From the NCBI RefSeq assembly GCF_009914755.1, contig NC_060927.1: a stretch of DNA of 64,000 nucleotides, one strand, 5' to 3'. This stretch comes from the human T2T-CHM13v2.0 reference genome, Homo sapiens. Each line of letters starts with the position of its first letter. The stretch's first letter is position 1. The position numbers and the translations under genes were made by a program. The notes under the pieces are model-generated. The model did no database searches. It was not told the DNA's origin and saw only the letters and a program-made list of their open reading frames with translations. Below are positions 36,358 through 45,175 of the stretch, piece after piece.

Positions 36358-36612
36358 CCTTATCCAATGGTCATGCCACTCTATCTCTCCATGTAATTTC
36401 TCCTCCTGGCTGTCTGTAGCAACAGCCTTCTGAGGAACCTCACTCTGCCTTTCAAAATCCCTTCAAATTGTACCCTTCATCAGCAAAGTATTTAGCTCAA
36501 CATGTATGCCTCTGGGGGAACTCATCCACATGCCATTTAAGGATATTTCCAGCAACATCATCTTCACTACCCCAGGACAGCATTTTAGAGTGGATTACGT
36601 GCCTGCTGGATG

Positions 36613-37172
36613 TGTTGTTCTTGAGAGAGTTAGAGAAAACGCTACAGTTTGAGATGAATTAAGAGTCTGTTTATTTAGCCGGCGGCTAAGGAACGGCTAA
36701 CGTTTAAAGTTCTCTCGGCTTCGAAGAAGGGGCTAAGATTTTCTTTTATACTTTGGTTTAGAAAGGGGAGGGGGGTCTAGTTAAAACAATTTTACATAAG
36801 TAAAGTAGGCAAAAAAGTTAAAAGGATAAATTGTTACAGGAAAGTAAACAGTTCTAGGTCTAGGGCCTTTAAGACTATTATAAGGTGATAGACACGGGAC
36901 TTTGGGCGTTATCAATAGGATGAATTCCTGGGAACTGCGGTTATTGCTCACCACAGTATCTTATCAGTTAATTGCATTCTTCGATGTGCTGGGAGTCAGC
37001 TTGCACAAGTTAAGTCCTTGAGGAAGGGGCTGCCAGTGAAAGAGCCAAGAAATGGAGTCTGTCTGGCTCTCTTAGCTAAGGGAGAGTCAATTCAGGTGGA
37101 AACAAGGCTAGGTCACTAAAAGAAAGGGAGAGTCTAAGAACACGGTTAGTAAAAACAAGGTTAGGCATTACA
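36613..37172 (-). repeat. HERV-T 3' LTR (LTR6A-like)
   Basis: TGTAATGCCTAACCTTG...ACAACA, preceded by a PPT. Confidence 0.93.
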
Positions 37173-37196
37173 TTCCTCACTTGTGTTTTTGGGGAA

Positions 37197-38281
37197 TCAA
37201 ATCATTGATTCTTCAGTTATAAAAAGGGGGTTATATTGAGTCTTAAGATACATAAGTTTGACAGAAGCTATGCGTTGTTCTACAAACTTAAGGAACTAAT
37301 TTAATATACAAGGCCCAAAAATTAGACTTATTAGTAGGATGGGGAGGGGGTCTGGCTAATTTAGTAATTAGAGTGGTTAGCTATGGGTTCTAGTTGAACA
37401 TGTTTTGATACTAGGGGATGTTATTTTCTTGTTCTTGTTGGCGCTTGTCTAGATTTTCTTGCACTTTTTGGAGTGTATCTTTTATGACTAAGAATGGTGG
37501 AGGAACTATTAAATCAACTTTGTCAGGGTGTTTCTGGAACATAGGGTTACTTAGATCAGTTAAAGGTCTGATTGGCTTGGGTGGGCTTCATGAGACTAGG
37601 GTTTTTTTGGATGGTGAACATAGACTTAACATTAAATCCTGGGATATAAAATCTTAATCTTCATGCCATGCCATGATACTATTGAGTTGAATTGAGGTCA
37701 TGGACAGTTATAATAAGAGGATTACAATTTTTTCTAGTACATAATTTAGGATGAGAAGCATGACTTATGGAAAGAGTTGAAGATCTGGTTGATCTTTTAG
37801 AGTAGGTGGCTAAAGTTACACATGTCTAATCAGGGCAGAAAAACTGATAAGCATCTTGACAGCTAGCATCAGGGTGATTTCTAGGACAGAGGTAAAAGTC
37901 AATATTTTGGAGTCTTTTTTCTGCACTTTTGGAGCTTCTTCATTTAGTTTGGCTCTTGGAATGTCTGAATCTTGCTGCAAGGTCGACACTTCCTGCCCCT
38001 GGGACTGGAAGATTGTGTTGCTTTTCGTGGGTATGGGCTGGCTTTGGGAAAAGTACAAATAAATCAACTGCGAAGGAGACTTCCTTGGAGGTACTGGCCT
38101 TCTAAGTGGTGTTTGCAAATACACGTCCTGTTGTGAAAGAGGTGAGGAGAAAGGAGTAGGAAGGCACAGAGGACATAAAGCGCAAAAACAAATAAGTGAG
38201 GTAGATAAAAAGAATTAATCTAATGGCTTCACCTGACTTAGGTGCAGTTTTAAGGGGTCTGACTTAGGCCTGGAGACTTAT
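37197..38281 (-). pseudogene. HERV-T env remnant
   Basis: VRPLKTAPKSGEAIRLILFIYL..SYSFLLTSFTTGRVFANTT*..; TM part ENNIP*YQNMFN*NP*LTTLIT; ATG changed to ATA. Confidence 0.9.
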
Positions 38282-40108
38282 GTTTTTAGCTGGGCTCTGT
38301 TGGCTTTTTTGATGCGGGGGTGATGAATCTAAGCAGGAATGCCGTCTACTTTCAGAGCAGTTGGAGTCGTGAGGATGACGGTGTGAGGTCTTTTCTAAGC
38401 AGGAGTGAGTCTTTCTTTTTGGAACTTTTTAACAAACACTAGGTCTCCTGGCTGGAATGAATGGCAGGAGTGCACCTTACTTTAAGTAGGGCTAAAGGAA
38501 GGAGACTTACTTAATTTACACTGGTTTTTAAGATTTTGTAAGAGTGTTTTTTAGGGTGTGGTTCACGCGTTCTACTTGCCTGGAGCTCTGGGGTTGATAG
38601 GCACAATGGAGCTTCTATTGAATGTTTAACGCCTTACTGACTGACTGAGCTATAGGCGAGGTGAAGGCTGGTCTATTATCAGACTTTATGGCAGCAGGCA
38701 ACCTATATTGAGGGATGATTTCATTGCATAAAAACTTAACTACTGTGTTGGTGGTTTCGTTTTCGGTAGCAAATGCCTTAGTCTATCTGGAGAAGGTGTC
38801 TACTCGTACTAGAAGGTATTTGTACTTAGCCTGGTGTGGTTTTACTTCTGTAAAGTCAATTTCTTACTTTTTTCTTGGCGAGTTTTTTCAGAGACAGTGG
38901 CCAGGGCTGGGTTTAGGACTCTGTTTGGCATTTACATGAGCGCAGGTTGTGCACTGGAGAGCTGCTTAATCTGTTAGGCTTTGAAGACGGGGGATCTTAA
39001 AATGGCTCCGGAGGAGCTGAGGTAGCTTTGCTCTTTTTAAGTGGGTGGTAGACTGTAGGTGACTGATTAAAGTTTCTTTAATAGTTCAGGATATGAAGAG
39101 TCTAGAGTCAGGAAGAATCTACTAACTTTCCTGATTTTTATTGGCTCTGAGATCTGAAGCCAGTTTTTTGTTGTTGTTGAGTATATGGGATTGTCAGGCA
39201 GATCTGGCTGTGGAAAGGAGACTGTGGGCAGCAAGTTTAGAGGCGTGACTGAAAGTGGCGCTGTGACCTTAGCTGCTGAATCAGCTTTCTGGTTACTATG
39301 GGCAACAGCCTTGTTTTCTTTTTGATGTCCTTTGCAGTGGATCACAGCTACCTGCTGAGGTGAGTAGCCTGCTTTCCTGGTAGATGGCTTTATGTACATG
39401 CACAGTAGCAAAGGCGTACTTGCTGCCAGTGTAAATGTTAATACGTTTATTCTTAGTTTATCGGAGAGCCTGAGTGAGGGCGATCAATTCAGCCTTTTGT
39501 GCTGAGGTGTTCGCTGGTAAAGCTTGAGCTTACAACACGTCTGTCTTCATGGTAACAGCTGCACTGGCTTTTCCTACTTCCTGCTTGAGGAAGCGGCTAC
39601 TGTCTGTGAACACGGCGGCATCTGCCTTTTCCAGGGGCACATCTTGAAGATCAGATCGGCCAGTTTCGATAGTTTCTAACAGTTCTTGACAGTCATGAGC
39701 AGGAATAGTGCACTCTGAGTCAGGAAGTAGTGTAGCTGGATTGAAACACTTTGTGGGATAGAAAGTCAAACGAGGCTGATCTAACAGTAAACTTCGATAC
39801 TGCAAGATGCGAGCATTTGACATCTATTTGCCAGAAGCACTTCGTAGTAAGGTCTTTACAGCACGAGGAGCTGTAAGGGTTAAATTTTGGCTTAGAGTAA
39901 ACTTATCTTCTTGGGCTAGGCTTGCTGTAGCCTCTACAGCTCACAGACAACTTGGCCATCTAGAGGCCACAGGATGTAGCCTCTTAGATAAATAGGCCAC
40001 TGGGTGTCTTTAGGGTCTTAAAGCCTGAGTAAGCACCTCTTTAGCAACTCCTTGGCTTTTATGGAGATATTAGGGAGGGCTAAAGCAGGGGCTTCAGTTA
40101 ATGCTAAA
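38214..40108 (-). pseudogene. HERV-T pol remnant (tether, RNase H, IN)
   Basis: LALTEAPALALP; VAVIHCKGHQK; EIDFTEV; VDTFS; KLHCAYQPQSS; protease and RT core absent. Confidence 0.9.
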
Positions 40109-41470
40109 TTAATGGGCTATTTTATTCTGCACTTCTTGGATAGCCGCCACTAAGATTTTTGTTTGTCTTTTGAATGCTTTATCAGCGGCCTTTTCAGCTG
40201 CCTGTGTTGCTTGTTTTTGTTTTTTAGCCTTTTGATGGTCAAAAGCTTTTTGGGCTATTTGTAAAAGCTGACTGATATTTATTCTAGCAAATCTTTCTAG
40301 TTTTTGGAGTTTCTTTTTAATATCCGGGGCTGCCTGAGCCACAAATGCTAAATTAAAAGCACGGCTATTTTCCGGAGCTGCCGGGTCAAAAGGGGTGTAA
40401 ATCCAATAAGCCTCCTGGAGACGCTCTAAAAACTTTCTTGGTGACTTATCGGGCCTTTGGACAACTTCAGTGATCTTAGACAAGTTTATGGGTTTCTGAG
40501 CGGCTCTTTTAATACTTGCGAGGAGATAGCGGTGAAAATCGCCTAAAGCTCTCCTTCTACTTGAGGAATTTGGGTCCCAGTTAGGCCAGGTAGAGGGAAA
40601 GACCTCTTCAAGGAGGTCTCTAGTGTCTTCTTCCGGTCTATTGGCTGATGTGAGGAATTATTTTTGGCTTCTTTTCGGATACGTTCGTTTTTTTCAGAGG
40701 TGAAAAGGGTTAAAAGGAGCTGTTGGCAATCATCTTAGGTGGTCAGGTGAGTCCAGAGTACGGACTCTATTAGAGAGGTCAAAGCCTGGGGCTTCTCAGA
40801 GAAGGGAGGATTATGGGTTTTCTAATTATATAAGTCAGAAGTAGAAAAAGGGACATAAACTAAGAAGGGGGCTGAGCGCTCATTACCTGGAGGGACTTGT
40901 GCCTCTCTCAGTGGTAGTAGAGGGGCTACTTCTTCCTGCCACGGTCGCGATTGAGAGGCAATGGGTGGCGAGCCTACAGGGGACGTCGTCGAGGAGACAT
41001 GGGATAACTTTAAGGGAGCAGGCTGGTTGTAAGGCGGTGGGACTGGGTGAGGGAGACTCTCCTCTTCTTCAGAGGGAGGCAGTACAGGGGAAGCCGAACC
41101 GGCTGAGGGTCGAGGTGAAAACGCGGTCTGGCTTAGGAGGACCTTGGAGGTAGAATTCTGAATGGCGCATGAGCGGAGCTATGGAGGGGCTCCTGACTAA
41201 ACTTAGCTATTGATCAAGGTAGGGAAACTGATCAGGGTGGCTAGGAGTTTCAGTAAGAACCTGCCACACAGTTTGAACAATTGTGAGGTTCAACGACCCT
41301 TCAGGGGGCCACTTGACTTTAAACTTTGGCCATTTTATTTTGCACAGTGTCTGGAGTTTGCCTTTTTTAAGGCGGACTTTATAATCCTCTGAGAAACTGA
41401 GAGGAAAATTCTGCAGCACACATTGGAGAGGGCTTTAACTTTTACAAGGCTGGGAGGAAGTGTTTCTTAT
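40109..41470 (-). pseudogene. HERV-T gag remnant (MA to CA)
   Basis: WPPEGSLN, HPDQFPY, FLERLQEAY, AFVAQAAPDI; start ATGGGA changed to ATAAGA. Confidence 0.9.
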
Positions 41471-42799
41471 TTTTTTTTGAAGGCAATTTAATAAGATTTG
41501 AGCATAAATATTAAACTTAGCATGGACAGAGAAACTTATTTCTTAGGGGACTGGAGTATTGAAAGAACAGAATCAACATGACTAGAAAGAGCAGAAAAAC
41601 TACAACAGCTAATGCTACTTGCTACATTACTGTAGCTTTAAGATTGAGGGAGGAGGACTAGAGCCAGCCTGAGATCTTCTGGGTCAGTTTGATCTAGGCG
41701 TTCTTCTTCTTCTAGATCTGTACTTTAAATACTTTTGGTGTCTTTATGACTTAAAGGCAAATAGCTTAAACTTAGCTTTTTCTTTTAAGGGTTTAAGGAG
41801 TGAGAGCAGAGTCAAGTCATGGAGATGCTGAACTTGCTGTCACACCAGAAAATGAGACGTGCAGGGTAGAGGGCAGGGACGATGCAAAAAGGACTACTCA
41901 GATCATTTTTAAGATGGGAGAGTAGCCACAGAGGAACAGAGTAAGAATCTCAACGAAGTAAAGTAGTACGGGCATACGTTCTACTTCAGGGCACAGGAAA
42001 AGTTACAGAATGACAAAAGAAGTGAGCAAGGAAATCTGCATGGTGGCTGTTTTGAATTTACTACTGGTTTAGTTTAGAGGAGGTCTAATCACTTGGACGT
42101 GGGGTATGACAATCCAAATACTTACAACTTTCATGGTGCTAGAAATCTTAATCAGGCAAATGTTTTTCACACTTGTTCTTGTAACAACACTTGACTTGCT
42201 TCTGGCAGAAAAGACAGGACTGTGGTGGCCAGCCTAAATGATTGATAAGAAATTTAACCTCCTGTGACAAAAAATCAGCACTAAGGACTTTGAAGAAGTT
42301 TTTACTTAGATGTCTTGGGCAATATCAACGTCTTGACATGCAAAACTTTGACAACTACTAAACAAGAAAATAGACACTGAACAGAACAATCAACATAAAC
42401 AATTGACTTTAGGGCATGTAAACAGTTATGACAGTTTCTTCCTTTTTTTTTTTTTTTTAGACAGACAAGGGGAGGGGGTCCTGTGATGAGATCAGTCAGA
42501 TGCCTGCCTGGCCGCTCCCCCTGAGGGAACTTGGGCTCCTCTTAGCATTGGCAGGCCGGTATAAACTTCCGGCTCAGATCGAGATATGCCTGATGCTGCC
42601 TTAAGCCTTATGAGGTCGCCACGGAACCGCAGGTGAGGGCCCACTTGAACTCCGTAGCTTTCACCGTGGAGCTATAAACTGGAGGACAAGCGCAAGCCCT
42701 TGTCCTCCCTCATTCATTCATTATTCACACAGAGTTTATAACAGTTTTTTTTTTCTTTCTTTCTTGGAGATTCTTCAAGAAACTTGAACAAGAGAAAGA

Positions 42800-42807
42800 T
42801 GAGAGAT

Positions 42808-42843
<36 letters not shown>
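42800..42843. repeat. (GA)n tract in the HERV-T leader
   Basis: Seen directly. Confidence 0.9.
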
Positions 42844-42846
<3 letters not shown>

Positions 42847-43271
42847 CCGGTCTGCCAGAAACCAGGACTCAGTCCTCCAGCATCCTGGGATGTGGACTGA
42901 GTCAAGGGAGGGCCCCTGTCAGGGCCACTTCCCTCCTAGACAGAGACACAGACGTGCCTAACAGAAAACCAGGGCTCTACCTTCTAGCATCCTAGGGAAA
43001 TGGGCAGAGTCAAAAGAGGGACGTCGTCATCAGGGCCGCTTCCCTCTTACTAGAACTGAAGTCAAATCTGACCTACCTGACCTCGGGGTCACAAGTTGAG
43101 GACTCAGAGGTGGAATTTTTGTGGGCACCCACACGGTAGTCGATCTGCTCTCCTCCGGAAGACGGTCACCTTTCGGGGACCTGAAAATTTTTTTTCAGGT
43201 GGCGCCCCCATTACAAGCCGGCCGTCCTTCCGGGGGGGCCCGGAGCAAGCCCGGCTCTCGCCTGGTGGCGT

Positions 43272-43289
43272 TTCTCACTAGGGCCTCCA
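43272..43289 (-). other. Primer-binding site, tRNA-Thr
   Basis: TGGAGGCCCTAGTGAGAA vs recalled tRNA-Thr(TGT) complement TGGAGGCCCCAGCGAGA. Confidence 0.85.
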
Positions 43290-43291
43290 AA

Positions 43292-43843
43292 TGTTGTACT
43301 TGAGCGAGTTAGAGAAAATGCCACAATTTGAGACGAATTATGAGTCTTTATTTAGCCGGTGGCCAAGATACGGCTAATGCTTAAAGTTCTCTCAGCCCCG
43401 AAGAAGGGGCTAGATTTTCTTTTATACTTTAGTTTAGAAAGGGGAAAGGGGTCTAGTTAAAACAATTTTACAGAAGTAGGCAAAGAAGTTAAAAGGATAA
43501 ATTGTTACAGGAAAGTAAACAGTTCTAGGTCTAAGGGCTTTAAGACTATTACAAAGTGATAGACACGGGGCTTTAGGCATTATCAATCAGACGAATTCCT
43601 AGGAACTGTGGATATTGCTCGCCCCACAGTATCTTATCAGTTAATTGCATTCTTAGATGTGCTAAGAGTCAGCTTGCACAAGTTAAGTCCTTGAGGAAGG
43701 GGCTGCCAGTGAAAAAGCCAAGATAAAGTCTGTCTAGCTCTCTTAGCTAAAAGAAAGTCAATTCAGGTAGAAACAAGGCTAAGTGATTAAAAGAAAAGGA
43801 ACGTCTACGAACAAAGTTAATAAAAACAAGGTTAGGCTTTACA
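43292..43843 (-). repeat. HERV-T 5' LTR (LTR6A-like)
   Basis: Direct repeat of 36613-37172, adjacent to the PBS. Confidence 0.93.
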
Positions 43844-44151
43844 GATGGGGTCATCCTTATATTCAGCACAGTGTTTGTTCTGAAACTTCAATGGAGTGTT
43901 CCTAGTTTGATAACTTGGGCCATGCCAAATAAATTGAATTTCTCTTTCTTAACAACAGATGTTTGAATACAGCCCCGTGTCCCTCTCTGCTCCTTCCTGC
44001 CTTCCTCCTCTCCTCTTCCTTCCCTTCCTTTTCAAGAGCAGGCTTTGTAAAATTTCTTGAAAGCATCAGATAGTAAATATTTTAGAATTCATGGGCCATA
44101 CAGTCTCTTGTAGTAGTTACTCAACTCTGCCACCCATAGCATGAAAGCAGC

Positions 44152-44547
44152 TGATATAGGGTGAATATGTCTCCCCGCCGAAATCTCATGTTGCAATGTA
44201 ATCCCCAGTGTTAGAGGTGGGGCCTGGTGGGGACAGATTGGATCATGGGGGTGGATTTCTCATGAATGATTTAGCATCATCCCTTTCGTCCTGTCCTTGC
44301 AATAGTGAGTGAGATCTTGCAAGATCTGGTTGTTTACGAGTGCGTAGCACCTCCCTCCTCACTCTCTTGTTCCCACTTCACCTTCTGCCATGATTGTAAG
44401 TTTCCTGAGGCCTCCACAGAAGCTCAGCAGATGTCAGTGTCATGCTCCCTGTACAGCCTACAAAACTGTGAGCAAATTAAGCCTCTTTTCTTTGTACATT
44501 ACCCAGTCTCAGGTATTTCCTTATAGCATGAGAGAACAGCCTAATCC
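44152..44547 (+). mobile_element. MST (MaLR) LTR nested in a MER58-like DNA transposon (about 44038-44665)
   Basis: AAATCTCATGTTGCAATGTAATCCCCAGTGTT..TACCCAGTCTCAGGTATTTC; MER58 motif CAATAAAACTTTATT. Confidence 0.75.
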
Positions 44548-44636
44548 AGCAGCCATAGACAATATGTAGCAAATGGGCATGGCTGTGTTTCAATAAAACT
44601 TTATTGACAAAAACTTGTGCAGCAGGTCAGATTTGA

Positions 44637-45175
<539 letters not shown>

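What the first reader, a model, noticed from the sequence alone, without database searches (positions are those of the whole stretch)
43292..43843. Opposite-strand editing in the two LTRs: plus-strand C>T confined to the 5' LTR U3
The two LTRs start out identical, so they can be compared directly. On the window + strand, the 5' LTR has G>A where the 3' LTR keeps G: GCTAAGAG (43661) vs GCTGGGAG (36988); CTAAAAGAAAGTC (43747) vs CTAAGGGAGAGTC (37076); ATAAAGTC vs ATGGAGTC; TTCCTAGG vs TTCCTGGG; TTTAGGCA vs TTTGGGCG; TCTAGCTC vs TCTGGCTC; GGTAGAAA vs GGTGGAAA; GAAAAAGCC vs GAAAGAGCC. This is C>T, mostly in CC context, on the proviral sense strand, the opposite polarity to the internal region. The 3' LTR R/U5 instead has private sense G>A changes (GCTACA vs GCCACA; GGCTAAG vs GGCCAAG; CTTCG vs CCCCG). 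The two PBS mismatches are also sense C>T. Known: APOBEC3G acts on single-stranded DNA, and plus-strand U3 and PBS are briefly single-stranded at second-strand transfer. Inference: this is a germline record of both strands of one reverse-transcription intermediate being edited. It would also make LTR-LTR dating overestimate the age of this provirus.
Basis: partly seen in the sequence, partly recalled or inferred. Interest (0 to 1): 0.82.

Follow-up and report, generated by a model that had tools for sequence, protein, structure and literature searches.

The report
Plus-strand editing scar in provirus LTR
An ancient human endogenous retrovirus carries about 27 C-to-T changes only in the front part of its 5' LTR and about 190 G-to-A changes inside, a fossil showing that an APOBEC3G-like enzyme hit both DNA strands while the virus was being copied.

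Summary
A gammaretrovirus-like provirus (LTR6A-type LTRs, the HERV-T3 clade of PMC5388530) lies on the window's minus strand, with a 4-bp target-site duplication and an empty-site paralog on chr16. Its LTRs differ at 57 of 550 sites; 27 are 5'=T/3'=C, against 4 the other way. Polarised with 29 other LTR6A copies and 21 segmental-duplication paralogs, 27 C>T changes map to the 5' LTR branch before the duplications.

- They lie at LTR positions 10-413, upstream of the TATA box.
- 20 of 27 are in CC context.
- The edited fraction of CC sites falls from 63% to 0% along the LTR.

There is no such burst in the host flank, the 3' LTRs or later paralog history. The internal region has 189 G>A against 23 C>T, with 44% of GG sites hit. 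A second, independent provirus on chr19 shows a smaller burst at largely the same sites.

The PBS claim fails: those two changes are later. Best reading: APOBEC3G-type editing of displaced plus-strand U3 DNA late in reverse transcription. This is known from HIV-1 in culture; the seven literature searches that ran found no report of it in endogenous retroviruses. Naive LTR dating doubles the age (25 vs 12-14 My).

The parts
43292..43843 (-). 5' LTR (552 nt, LTR6A type)
   Evidence: Direct repeat with 36613-37172. TATAAAA at LTR 418 and AATAAA at LTR 492. Followed by the PBS.
43431..43834 (-). Zone of the sense-strand C>T burst (LTR positions 10-413): 27 sites, 20 in CC context, density falling from the LTR start towards the TATA box
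   Evidence: CC sites edited: 10/16 (1-130), 4/10 (131-260), 6/24 (261-413), 0/7 (414-552). Spearman rho -0.35, p = 0.008.
43292..43430 (-). Unedited end of the 5' LTR (positions 414-552: TATA box, inferred R and U5)
   Evidence: 0 of 35 C sites changed on the stem branch.
43272..43289 (-). Primer binding site. The two C>T here are later changes, not part of the burst.
   Evidence: 8 of 15 paralogs and 4 of 8 independent proviruses share one identical 17-mer. One focal change is private, the other a recurrent CpG change.
37173..43291 (-). Internal region, heavily G>A hypermutated on the sense strand
   Evidence: 189 G>A vs 23 C>T on the stem branch; GG 120/274, GA 50/305, GT 10/274, GC 9/263; first 1500 nt, 45 G>A, 34 of them before G. 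Gag_MA and Gag_p30.
36613..37172 (-). 3' LTR (560 nt). It keeps C at the burst sites.
   Evidence: It shares 8 lineage-specific changes with the 5' LTR.
36687..36721 (-). Three 3'-LTR-specific G>A on the pre-duplication branch (window 36721, 36703, 36687 = LTR 446, 464, 480; inferred R region)
   Evidence: the only 3 substitutions on that branch; 2 of 3 in GG context.
43844..43847 (.). Target-site duplication GATG (window + strand), upstream copy
   Evidence: The empty site on chr16 (L064) has the tetranucleotide once.
36609..36612 (.). Target-site duplication GATG, downstream copy
43848..44690 (.). Upstream host flank without a C>T burst
   Evidence: 35 fixed differences from the chr16 empty-site paralog, C>T 4, T>C 2. 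CC sites changed: 1/16 in the nearest 400 nt.

Best explanation
The virus particle that founded this provirus carried an APOBEC3G-type cytidine deaminase. During its single reverse transcription the enzyme deaminated the minus strand wherever it was single-stranded. That gave about 190 sense G>A changes, hitting 44% of GG sites.

[quoted passage not shown] The minus strand of the future 5' LTR is copied from this plus strand, so the C>U changes became fixed as C>T in the 5' LTR only.

The exposure most likely arose because plus-strand synthesis arriving from upstream of the polypurine tract peeled the strong-stop DNA off its template, starting at its 5' end. R-U5 would have stayed paired or been copied first. 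This accounts for the decline from the LTR start and the clean R-U5 and PBS.

The complementary displaced minus strand (R-U5 of the future 3' LTR) may have taken the three 3'-only G>A changes.

The dead-on-arrival provirus then entered the germ line and was copied at least 15 times by segmental duplication.

Shown: polarity, context, gradient, confinement to the LTR, timing before the duplications, and recurrence in a second provirus. Inferred: the enzyme's identity, the timing before integration, and the displacement route.
For: (1) 25-27 C>T against 0-2 G>A and 1 transversion on the 5' LTR stem branch. The sister 3' LTR branch has only 3 substitutions; binomial 28 vs 3, p = 5e-6.

(2) The context profile mirrors the internal minus-strand profile. 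In U3: CC 20/50, TC 5/27, AC+GC 2/48. Internal: GG 120/274, GA 50/305, GT+GC 19/537.

(3) Strand polarity flips between the 5' LTR and the internal region: 27:2 vs 23:189, p = 8e-20.

(4) The T alleles are shared by all 7 full paralogs at most sites, and by all 7 truncated paralogs at 14 of 15 retained sites. The spectrum after duplication is ordinary: C>T 13, G>A 9, T>C 13, A>G 8. It was a single early burst, not an ongoing process.

(5) The burst respects the provirus edge. The first edit is at LTR position 10. The flank has 1/16 CC sites changed in the nearest 400 nt against 20/50 in U3, p = 0.013. The first 500 internal nt have 0-1 C>T.

(6) TSD and empty site show one bona fide integration. 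The two LTRs share 8 private changes.

(7) An independent provirus, chr19:23.31 Mb (L069), has 13 5'-derived C>T. Nine are non-CpG, 8 of these in CC context. Eight of the 13 lie in the first 94 nt, and 7 are at sites also edited here, interleaved with unedited focal sites. Overlap p = 0.002.

[quoted passage not shown] LTR-specific editing through a displaced strand is proposed for mouse Mtv 3' LTRs (PMC12548423).
Against: No outgroup can separate 'just before integration' from 'just after integration but before the first duplication'.

The PBS, which the HIV-1 precedent also names, is unedited although it holds a CCCC run.

The absence of edits in R-U5 rests on 7 CC sites (p = 0.045), so a smooth gradient cannot be told from a sharp boundary.

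The second case (L069) has no clear internal G>A hypermutation: 71 G>A vs 62 C>T. Plus-strand U3 editing does not simply scale with minus-strand editing.

In the textbook scheme the strong-stop DNA stays base-paired, so the exposure step is a hypothesis.

The U3/R/U5 borders are inferred from TATA and AATAAA motifs only.

Only 40 best matches per genome search were scored.
Confidence: 0.75

Rival explanations
1. Post-integration clustered editing. After integration but before the first segmental duplication, an APOBEC3 enzyme deaminated a stretch of exposed single-stranded chromosomal DNA (repair, replication or transcription), and the stretch happened to be the 5' LTR U3.
For: The timing cannot be resolved more finely than 'before the duplications'. 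Germline clusters with APOBEC3G-like context have been described in hominid genomes; this is recalled and no paper on it was read here.
Against: The cluster begins 10 nt inside the LTR. The flank is clean (1/16 CC sites vs 20/50), and so are the PBS and leader. Forty percent of CC sites were hit over 400 nt, the same intensity as the virion-type editing inside the provirus. An unrelated provirus on chr19 has the same sites hit at the same end of its 5' LTR. The 15 paralogs accumulated no further such changes.
Confidence: 0.1
2. The single-stranded plus-strand U3 arose at the end of finished or nearly finished linear viral DNA, by end breathing or a minus strand not yet completed to the U3 terminus. 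On this reading a deaminase of the target cell, not the virion, did the editing.
For: The gradient is steepest at the very terminus (10/16 CC sites in the first 130 nt). The chr19 case has terminal U3 edits without clear internal hypermutation, as if the two strands were exposed independently.
Against: In this provirus the per-site intensity and context profile on the two strands match closely, which is simplest if one enzyme pool acted in one reaction. Edits reach 400 nt inward, further than end breathing would suggest. That last point is inference.
Confidence: 0.1
3. Recombinant or gene-converted LTR: the 5' LTR was replaced by, or converted from, an LTR6 subfamily that carries T at these sites.
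For: The 5' LTR is only 87-89% identical to other LTR6A copies, while the 3' LTR is 89-92% identical.
Against: No such donor exists among the best 40 genomic matches. 29 independent copies have C at 22-29 of 29 at these sites. The TSD is intact and an empty site exists. The two LTRs share 8 private changes. All the differences are of one type and context. The chr19 5' LTR shares only an interleaved subset, not a tract.
Confidence: 0.02
4. Ordinary neutral drift and CpG decay since integration.
For: Two of the 27 sites (251, 265) are CpG sites, and site 10 recurs in other copies.
Against: 25-27 C>T against 0-2 G>A on one branch, while the sister LTR has 3 changes. 25 of the 27 are non-CpG. Later evolution of the same sequence in 8 and 14 paralogs shows a balanced spectrum.
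Confidence: 0.01

Closest known systems
Plus-strand C>T in the 5' LTR U3 and PBS of vif-deficient HIV-1 made in the presence of APOBEC3G (Yu et al. 2004, Nat Struct Mol Biol; not held; seen only through a passage in bioRxiv 10.1101/005256, and in PMC4549124)
   Same: Sense-strand C>T confined to the 5' LTR U3, beside genome-wide sense G>A. The explanation is a transiently single-stranded plus strand.
   Different: That was a cell-culture observation in a lentivirus and was described as rare. Here it is a germline fossil of a gammaretrovirus-like virus with 40% of CC sites hit and a measurable gradient. The PBS is not edited here. The PBS part of the HIV-1 claim was itself disputed as alternative tRNA priming (PMC4549124, passages).
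3'-LTR-specific G>A in endogenous mouse mammary tumor viruses and one MLV (Shaffer et al. 2025, J Virol, PMC12548423; abstract, section 7 and discussion passages read)
   Same: The two LTRs of one provirus were edited unequally in the last reverse transcription. The explanation given is strand displacement late in DNA synthesis. The paper also discusses distortion of age estimates.
   Different: There, all but one of the LTR mismatches are G>A in the 3' LTR, from the displaced minus strand. No 5'-LTR C>T is reported. Here the dominant signal is on the other strand and in the other LTR; the 3' LTR G>A counterpart is only 3 sites.
Classical APOBEC3G hypermutation of endogenous retroviruses (HERV-K, murine MLV and IAPE; PMC2531183 and PMC2041998, passages; HERV-T2 from a hypermutated HERV-T1 element, PMC5388530, passages)
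   Same: The internal region shows GG>AG dominance, about 8-fold more G>A than C>T, acquired before integration.
   Different: Those studies, and the genome-wide scan PMC4866542, use sense C>T as the non-specific control. The murine MLV study analysed only PBS to PPT. A 5'-LTR C>T class would therefore be missed or counted as noise.

Membership tests
APOBEC3G-type retroviral hypermutation footprint | One substitution type on one strand, far above all others | tested here: met
   5' LTR stem: 25-27 C>T vs 0-2 G>A and 1 transversion. Internal: 189 G>A vs 23 C>T.
APOBEC3G-type retroviral hypermutation footprint | Edited C preceded by C (CC; GG>AG on the opposite strand), with TC/GA second | tested here: met
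   CC 20/57, TC 5/40, AC 2/34, GC 0/29. GG 120/274, GA 50/305, GT 10/274, GC 9/263.
APOBEC3G-type retroviral hypermutation footprint | Acquired in the last reverse transcription, before integration | tested here: inconclusive
   It predates all duplications, is confined to viral DNA and is absent from the sister LTR. The interval between integration and the first duplication cannot be excluded.
APOBEC3G-type retroviral hypermutation footprint | The enzyme is APOBEC3G itself | not testable with these tools
   Only the context preference is seen. Which primate paralogue acted is an inference.
Plus-strand strong-stop DNA editing as described for HIV-1 (U3 of the 5' LTR plus PBS) | Sense C>T restricted to the 5' LTR and absent from the 3' LTR | tested here: met
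   the 3' paralogs keep C at 9-13 of 13 at these sites, except position 189 where most carry G.
Plus-strand strong-stop DNA editing as described for HIV-1 (U3 of the 5' LTR plus PBS) | PBS also edited | tested here: not met
   The ancestral PBS of the group is identical to that of independent proviruses. The focal changes are later.
Plus-strand strong-stop DNA editing as described for HIV-1 (U3 of the 5' LTR plus PBS) | Accompanied by minus-strand G>A hypermutation of the same genome | tested here: met
   Met for this provirus. Not met for the second case, L069 (71 G>A vs 62 C>T).
3'-LTR-specific G>A (displaced minus strand; Mtv type) | Excess G>A private to the 3' LTR | tested here: inconclusive
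   3 of 3 stem substitutions are G>A, at LTR 446, 464 and 480, two in GG context. Too few to test.
Chromosomal APOBEC mutation cluster (kataegis-like) | A cluster placed without regard to element borders, at chromosomal density | tested here: not met
   It starts 10 nt inside the LTR, the flank and leader are clean, and 27 changes lie within 404 nt.
HERV-T3 / LTR6A provirus | Gammaretrovirus-like gag, 4-bp TSD, and LTRs matching the genomic LTR6A copies | tested here: met
   Gag_MA and Gag_p30. TSD. LTR matches at 87-92% to dozens of copies. The names LTR6A and HERV-T3 come from the finding and from PMC5388530, not from a repeat-library search here.

The most novel reading that the evidence does not exclude
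Plus-strand editing of the 5' part of U3 may be a general, overlooked class of APOBEC3 footprint in endogenous retroviruses. It would be visible only as 5'-LTR-private CC>CT changes that decline from the LTR start. The gradient, together with 3'-LTR-private G>A in R-U5, would record where the two strand-displacement syntheses of late reverse transcription met. It could occur even without heavy minus-strand hypermutation, as in the chr19 case. If so, genome-wide scans that use sense C>T clusters as negative controls subtract a real signal, and LTR-LTR ages of such proviruses are inflated up to two-fold.
Probability: 0.4. Interest if true: 0.78.

Novelty: new variant of a known kind. Interest (0 to 1): 0.68.

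Why it matters
- It gives in-vivo, germline evidence that a deaminase can reach retroviral plus-strand DNA. That point rests on one cell-culture study of HIV-1, part of which has been disputed.
- It provides a quantitative gradient bearing on how the LTRs are completed.
- It is the missing counterpart of the 3'-LTR-specific G>A that a 2025 paper described as not previously reported (PMC12548423).
- Practically, LTR-divergence dating of this provirus is inflated about two-fold: 25 My against 12-14 My.
- Sense C>T, used as a neutral control in editing scans, is not always neutral inside 5' LTRs.
- A hypermutated, dead-on-arrival provirus reached at least 15 copies purely by segmental duplication.

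Tried and rejected
- **Subfamily or recombinant LTR:** rejected.
- **Drift and CpG decay:** rejected.
- **PBS editing:** tested and rejected.
- **Extension of the burst into the host flank:** tested against the chr16 empty-site paralog and not found. That comparison has a single outgroup and is unpolarised.
- **An ongoing 5'-LTR-specific process:** rejected by the ordinary spectrum after duplication.
- **Gene conversion between this family and the chr19 provirus:** rejected, because shared and unshared sites interleave and chr19 has two edits of its own.
- **Earlier findings of this scan:** not open.
- **Yu et al. 2004 and Das et al. 2005:** could not be read. The first was never requested, since earlier listings showed no PMC id for it; the second is not held. 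What they say is taken from passages in other papers or recalled.
- **Literature searches:** none of the seven that ran turned up a report of 5'-LTR-specific C>T in an endogenous retrovirus. The library lacks most subscription journals, and supplements were not opened.
- **LTR6B-type proviruses (L073-L076):** not polarised, for want of outgroups.

Full report
**1. Anatomy**

The window holds a 7,231-nt provirus on the minus strand.
- The 5' LTR is 43292-43843 and the 3' LTR is 36613-37172.
- The 4-bp target-site duplication GATG (window + strand) lies at 43844-47 and 36609-12.
- Gag_MA (41207-41434) lies upstream of Gag_p30 (40109-40657) on the minus strand, and a PBS abuts the LTR at 43291. 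These fix the orientation.
- The LTRs match dozens of genomic copies at 87-92%. The finding calls them LTR6A, and PMC5388530 (passages) equates LTR6A with clade HERV-T3.

The locus is part of a segmental-duplication family.
- Seven further full copies lie on chr3 (two), chr4, chr11 (three) and chr12.
- Seven copies on chr4 (two), chr7 and chr8 (four) share a deletion of 358 nt of flank plus LTR positions 1-109.
- A paralog on chr16 (L064) has the uninterrupted target site with the tetranucleotide once.

So this was one integration into an already duplicated segment, followed by at least 14 further duplications.

**2. The observation**

In sense orientation the LTRs differ at 57 of 550 aligned sites: 27 are 5'T/3'C, 4 are 5'C/3'T, 8 are 5'G/3'A, 5 are 5'A/3'G, and 13 are transversions.

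**3. Polarisation**

I aligned three sets: 8 full 5' LTR paralogs, 14 3' LTR paralogs, and 29 LTR6A copies from other loci.

On the branch leading to all the 5' LTRs:
- there are 25 C>T and 1 G>C under strict thresholds;
- under looser thresholds there are 27 C>T among 160 C sites and 2 G>A among 90 G sites;
- both G>A sites also vary among the outgroup copies.

The sister branch leading to all the 3' LTRs has 3 substitutions, all G>A, and one 5-nt deletion. Eight changes are shared by both LTRs against the outgroup, which confirms the two are sisters.

The seven truncated paralogs carry T at 14 of the 15 burst sites they retain. Site 243 is C in all seven.

After the duplications the 5' LTR copies evolved with an ordinary spectrum: C>T 13, G>A 9, T>C 13, A>G 8, transversions 32.

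**4. Context and position**

| Preceding base | C sites edited |
|---|---|
| C (CC) | 20/57 |
| T (TC) | 5/40 |
| A (AC) | 2/34 |
| G (GC) | 0/29 |

CC against non-CC gives p = 1e-5.

All the edits lie at LTR positions 10-413. TATAAAA is at 418 and AATAAA at 492, so the edited zone is U3 upstream of the promoter core. These borders are inferred from motifs.

| LTR positions | CC sites edited |
|---|---|
| 1-130 | 10/16 |
| 131-260 | 4/10 |
| 261-413 | 6/24 |
| 414-552 | 0/7 |

The decline is significant (Spearman rho -0.35, p = 0.008).

**5. Boundaries**

Against the chr16 empty-site paralog, the 847-nt upstream flank shows 35 fixed differences, with C>T 4, T>C 2, G>A 8 and A>G 7. In the 400 nt nearest the LTR, 1 of 16 CC sites is changed, against 20 of 50 in U3 (p = 0.013).

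Downstream, the PBS of the ancestral copy is identical to that of independent proviruses. The focal copy's two C>T changes are one private change and one recurrent CpG change. The first 500 internal nt carry 0-1 C>T.

**6. The other strand**

I compared the provirus and four paralogs with five independent proviruses. The internal region has 189 G>A on the stem branch against 23 C>T.

| Following base | G sites edited |
|---|---|
| G (GG) | 120/274 |
| A (GA) | 50/305 |
| T (GT) | 10/274 |
| C (GC) | 9/263 |

. A second comparison of the first 1500 nt, using 15 paralogs and 8 outgroups, gives 45 G>A, 34 of them before G.

The per-site intensity and the context ranking on the two strands are nearly the same: 44% of GG against 40% of CC; 16% of GA against 19% of TC; about 4% for the rest. 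The polarity flip between the 5' LTR and the interior has p = 8e-20.

**7. A second case**

Counts of 5'T/3'C against 5'C/3'T in LTR pairs:

| Provirus | 5'T/3'C : 5'C/3'T |
|---|---|
| This provirus | 27:4 |
| Its four fetched paralogs | 26:3, 23:4, 13:2, 28:6 |
| Seven other integrations | 6:6, 13:3, 7:4, 4:7, 5:2, 5:4, 5:2 |

The 13:3 provirus lies at chr19:23.31 Mb (L069). Polarised, it has 13 C>T derived in its 5' LTR. Four are CpG sites. Of the other nine, eight are in CC context. Eight of the 13 lie within the first 94 nt, and seven are at sites also edited here.

The shared sites interleave with focal sites that chr19 left unedited, and chr19 has two edits of its own. Conversion is therefore not the cause. 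Descent is excluded because the U3 of a 5' LTR is not transcribed into genomic RNA; this rests on established knowledge of retroviral replication.

Its interior is not clearly hypermutated: 71 G>A against 62 C>T.

**8. Mechanism**

Established knowledge of reverse transcription: both LTRs take their U3 from the same RNA copy. [quoted passage not shown] A 5'-only sense C>T must therefore have arisen on the strong-stop plus strand, or later on the chromosome.

Four features point to the first: confinement to viral DNA, virion-like intensity, the mirror-image context, and recurrence in another provirus.

The decline from the LTR start fits progressive peeling of the strong-stop DNA from its 5' end by plus-strand synthesis arriving from upstream, with R-U5 copied first by the minus strand. 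The three 3'-only G>A changes in the inferred R region fit the complementary displaced minus strand, as proposed for mouse Mtv (PMC12548423). These routes are inference.

**9. Literature**

[quoted passage not shown] I could not read that study.
- PMC4549124 (passages) disputes the PBS part.
- PMC12548423 (abstract, section 7 and discussion passages) reports 3'-LTR-specific G>A and calls LTR G>A differences previously unreported. All but one of its LTR mismatches are 3' G>A.
- PMC4866542, PMC2531183 and PMC2041998 (passages) use sense C>T as the control class.
- PMC5388530 (passages) ran Hypermut on 49 HERV-T genomes. The passages I saw do not mention LTR asymmetry, and its source data were not opened.
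- Ten searches were sent, of which three failed on term format and seven ran. None turned up a report of 5'-LTR-specific C>T in an endogenous retrovirus.

**10. Consequence for dating**

With the rate used in PMC5388530 (2.2e-9 per site per year):
- the raw pair gives 25.3 My;
- removing the 25 burst sites that distinguish the pair gives 13.8 My;
- removing the three 3' G>A as well gives 12.4 My.

**11. Verdict**

It is a new variant of a known kind of footprint.

Noticed in passing
L069 (G000 chr19:23314400-23321750): An independent HERV-T provirus whose 5' LTR has 13 private C>T. Eight are in CC context, eight lie within the first 94 nt, and seven are at the sites edited in the window's provirus. 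Its interior is not clearly G>A hypermutated. Its TSD is not clean.
   Followed up: partly
L075/L076 (G000 chr6:28640800-28651500): An LTR6B-like provirus with 8 sites 5'G/3'A against 1 site 5'A/3'G. This may be 3'-LTR-specific G>A of the kind described for mouse Mtv. It was not polarised.
   Followed up: no
window 36613-43843 and loci L002-L008, L060-L067, L079-L082: The provirus was amplified by segmental duplication, not retrotransposition. At least 15 copies lie on chr3, 4, 7, 8, 11 and 12, and there is a pre-integration empty-site paralog on chr16 (L064).
   Followed up: partly
L060-L063, L065-L067 (chr8 x4, chr4 x2, chr7): Seven paralogs share one deletion that removes 358 nt of upstream flank and LTR positions 1-109. 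This marks a sub-lineage of the duplication family. The same seven have C at burst site 243.
   Followed up: partly
window about 38470: This copy alone lacks about 193 nt that are present at this point in at least 7 of the 9 other aligned copies. The genome-search hits in the paralogs and other proviruses are interrupted at the same point.
   Followed up: partly
window 41435-43271: About 1.85 kb lies between the PBS and the first recognisable Gag domain (MA), an unusually long leader. In the copy at chr2:124.12 Mb, part of this region (query 449-501) is present as many tandem units of about 50 nt.
   Followed up: no
PBS, window 43272-43289 and paralogs: The paralogs split between two PBS variants at one position (C or G after CCC). 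This suggests an early polymorphism or conversion among the duplicates.
   Followed up: no
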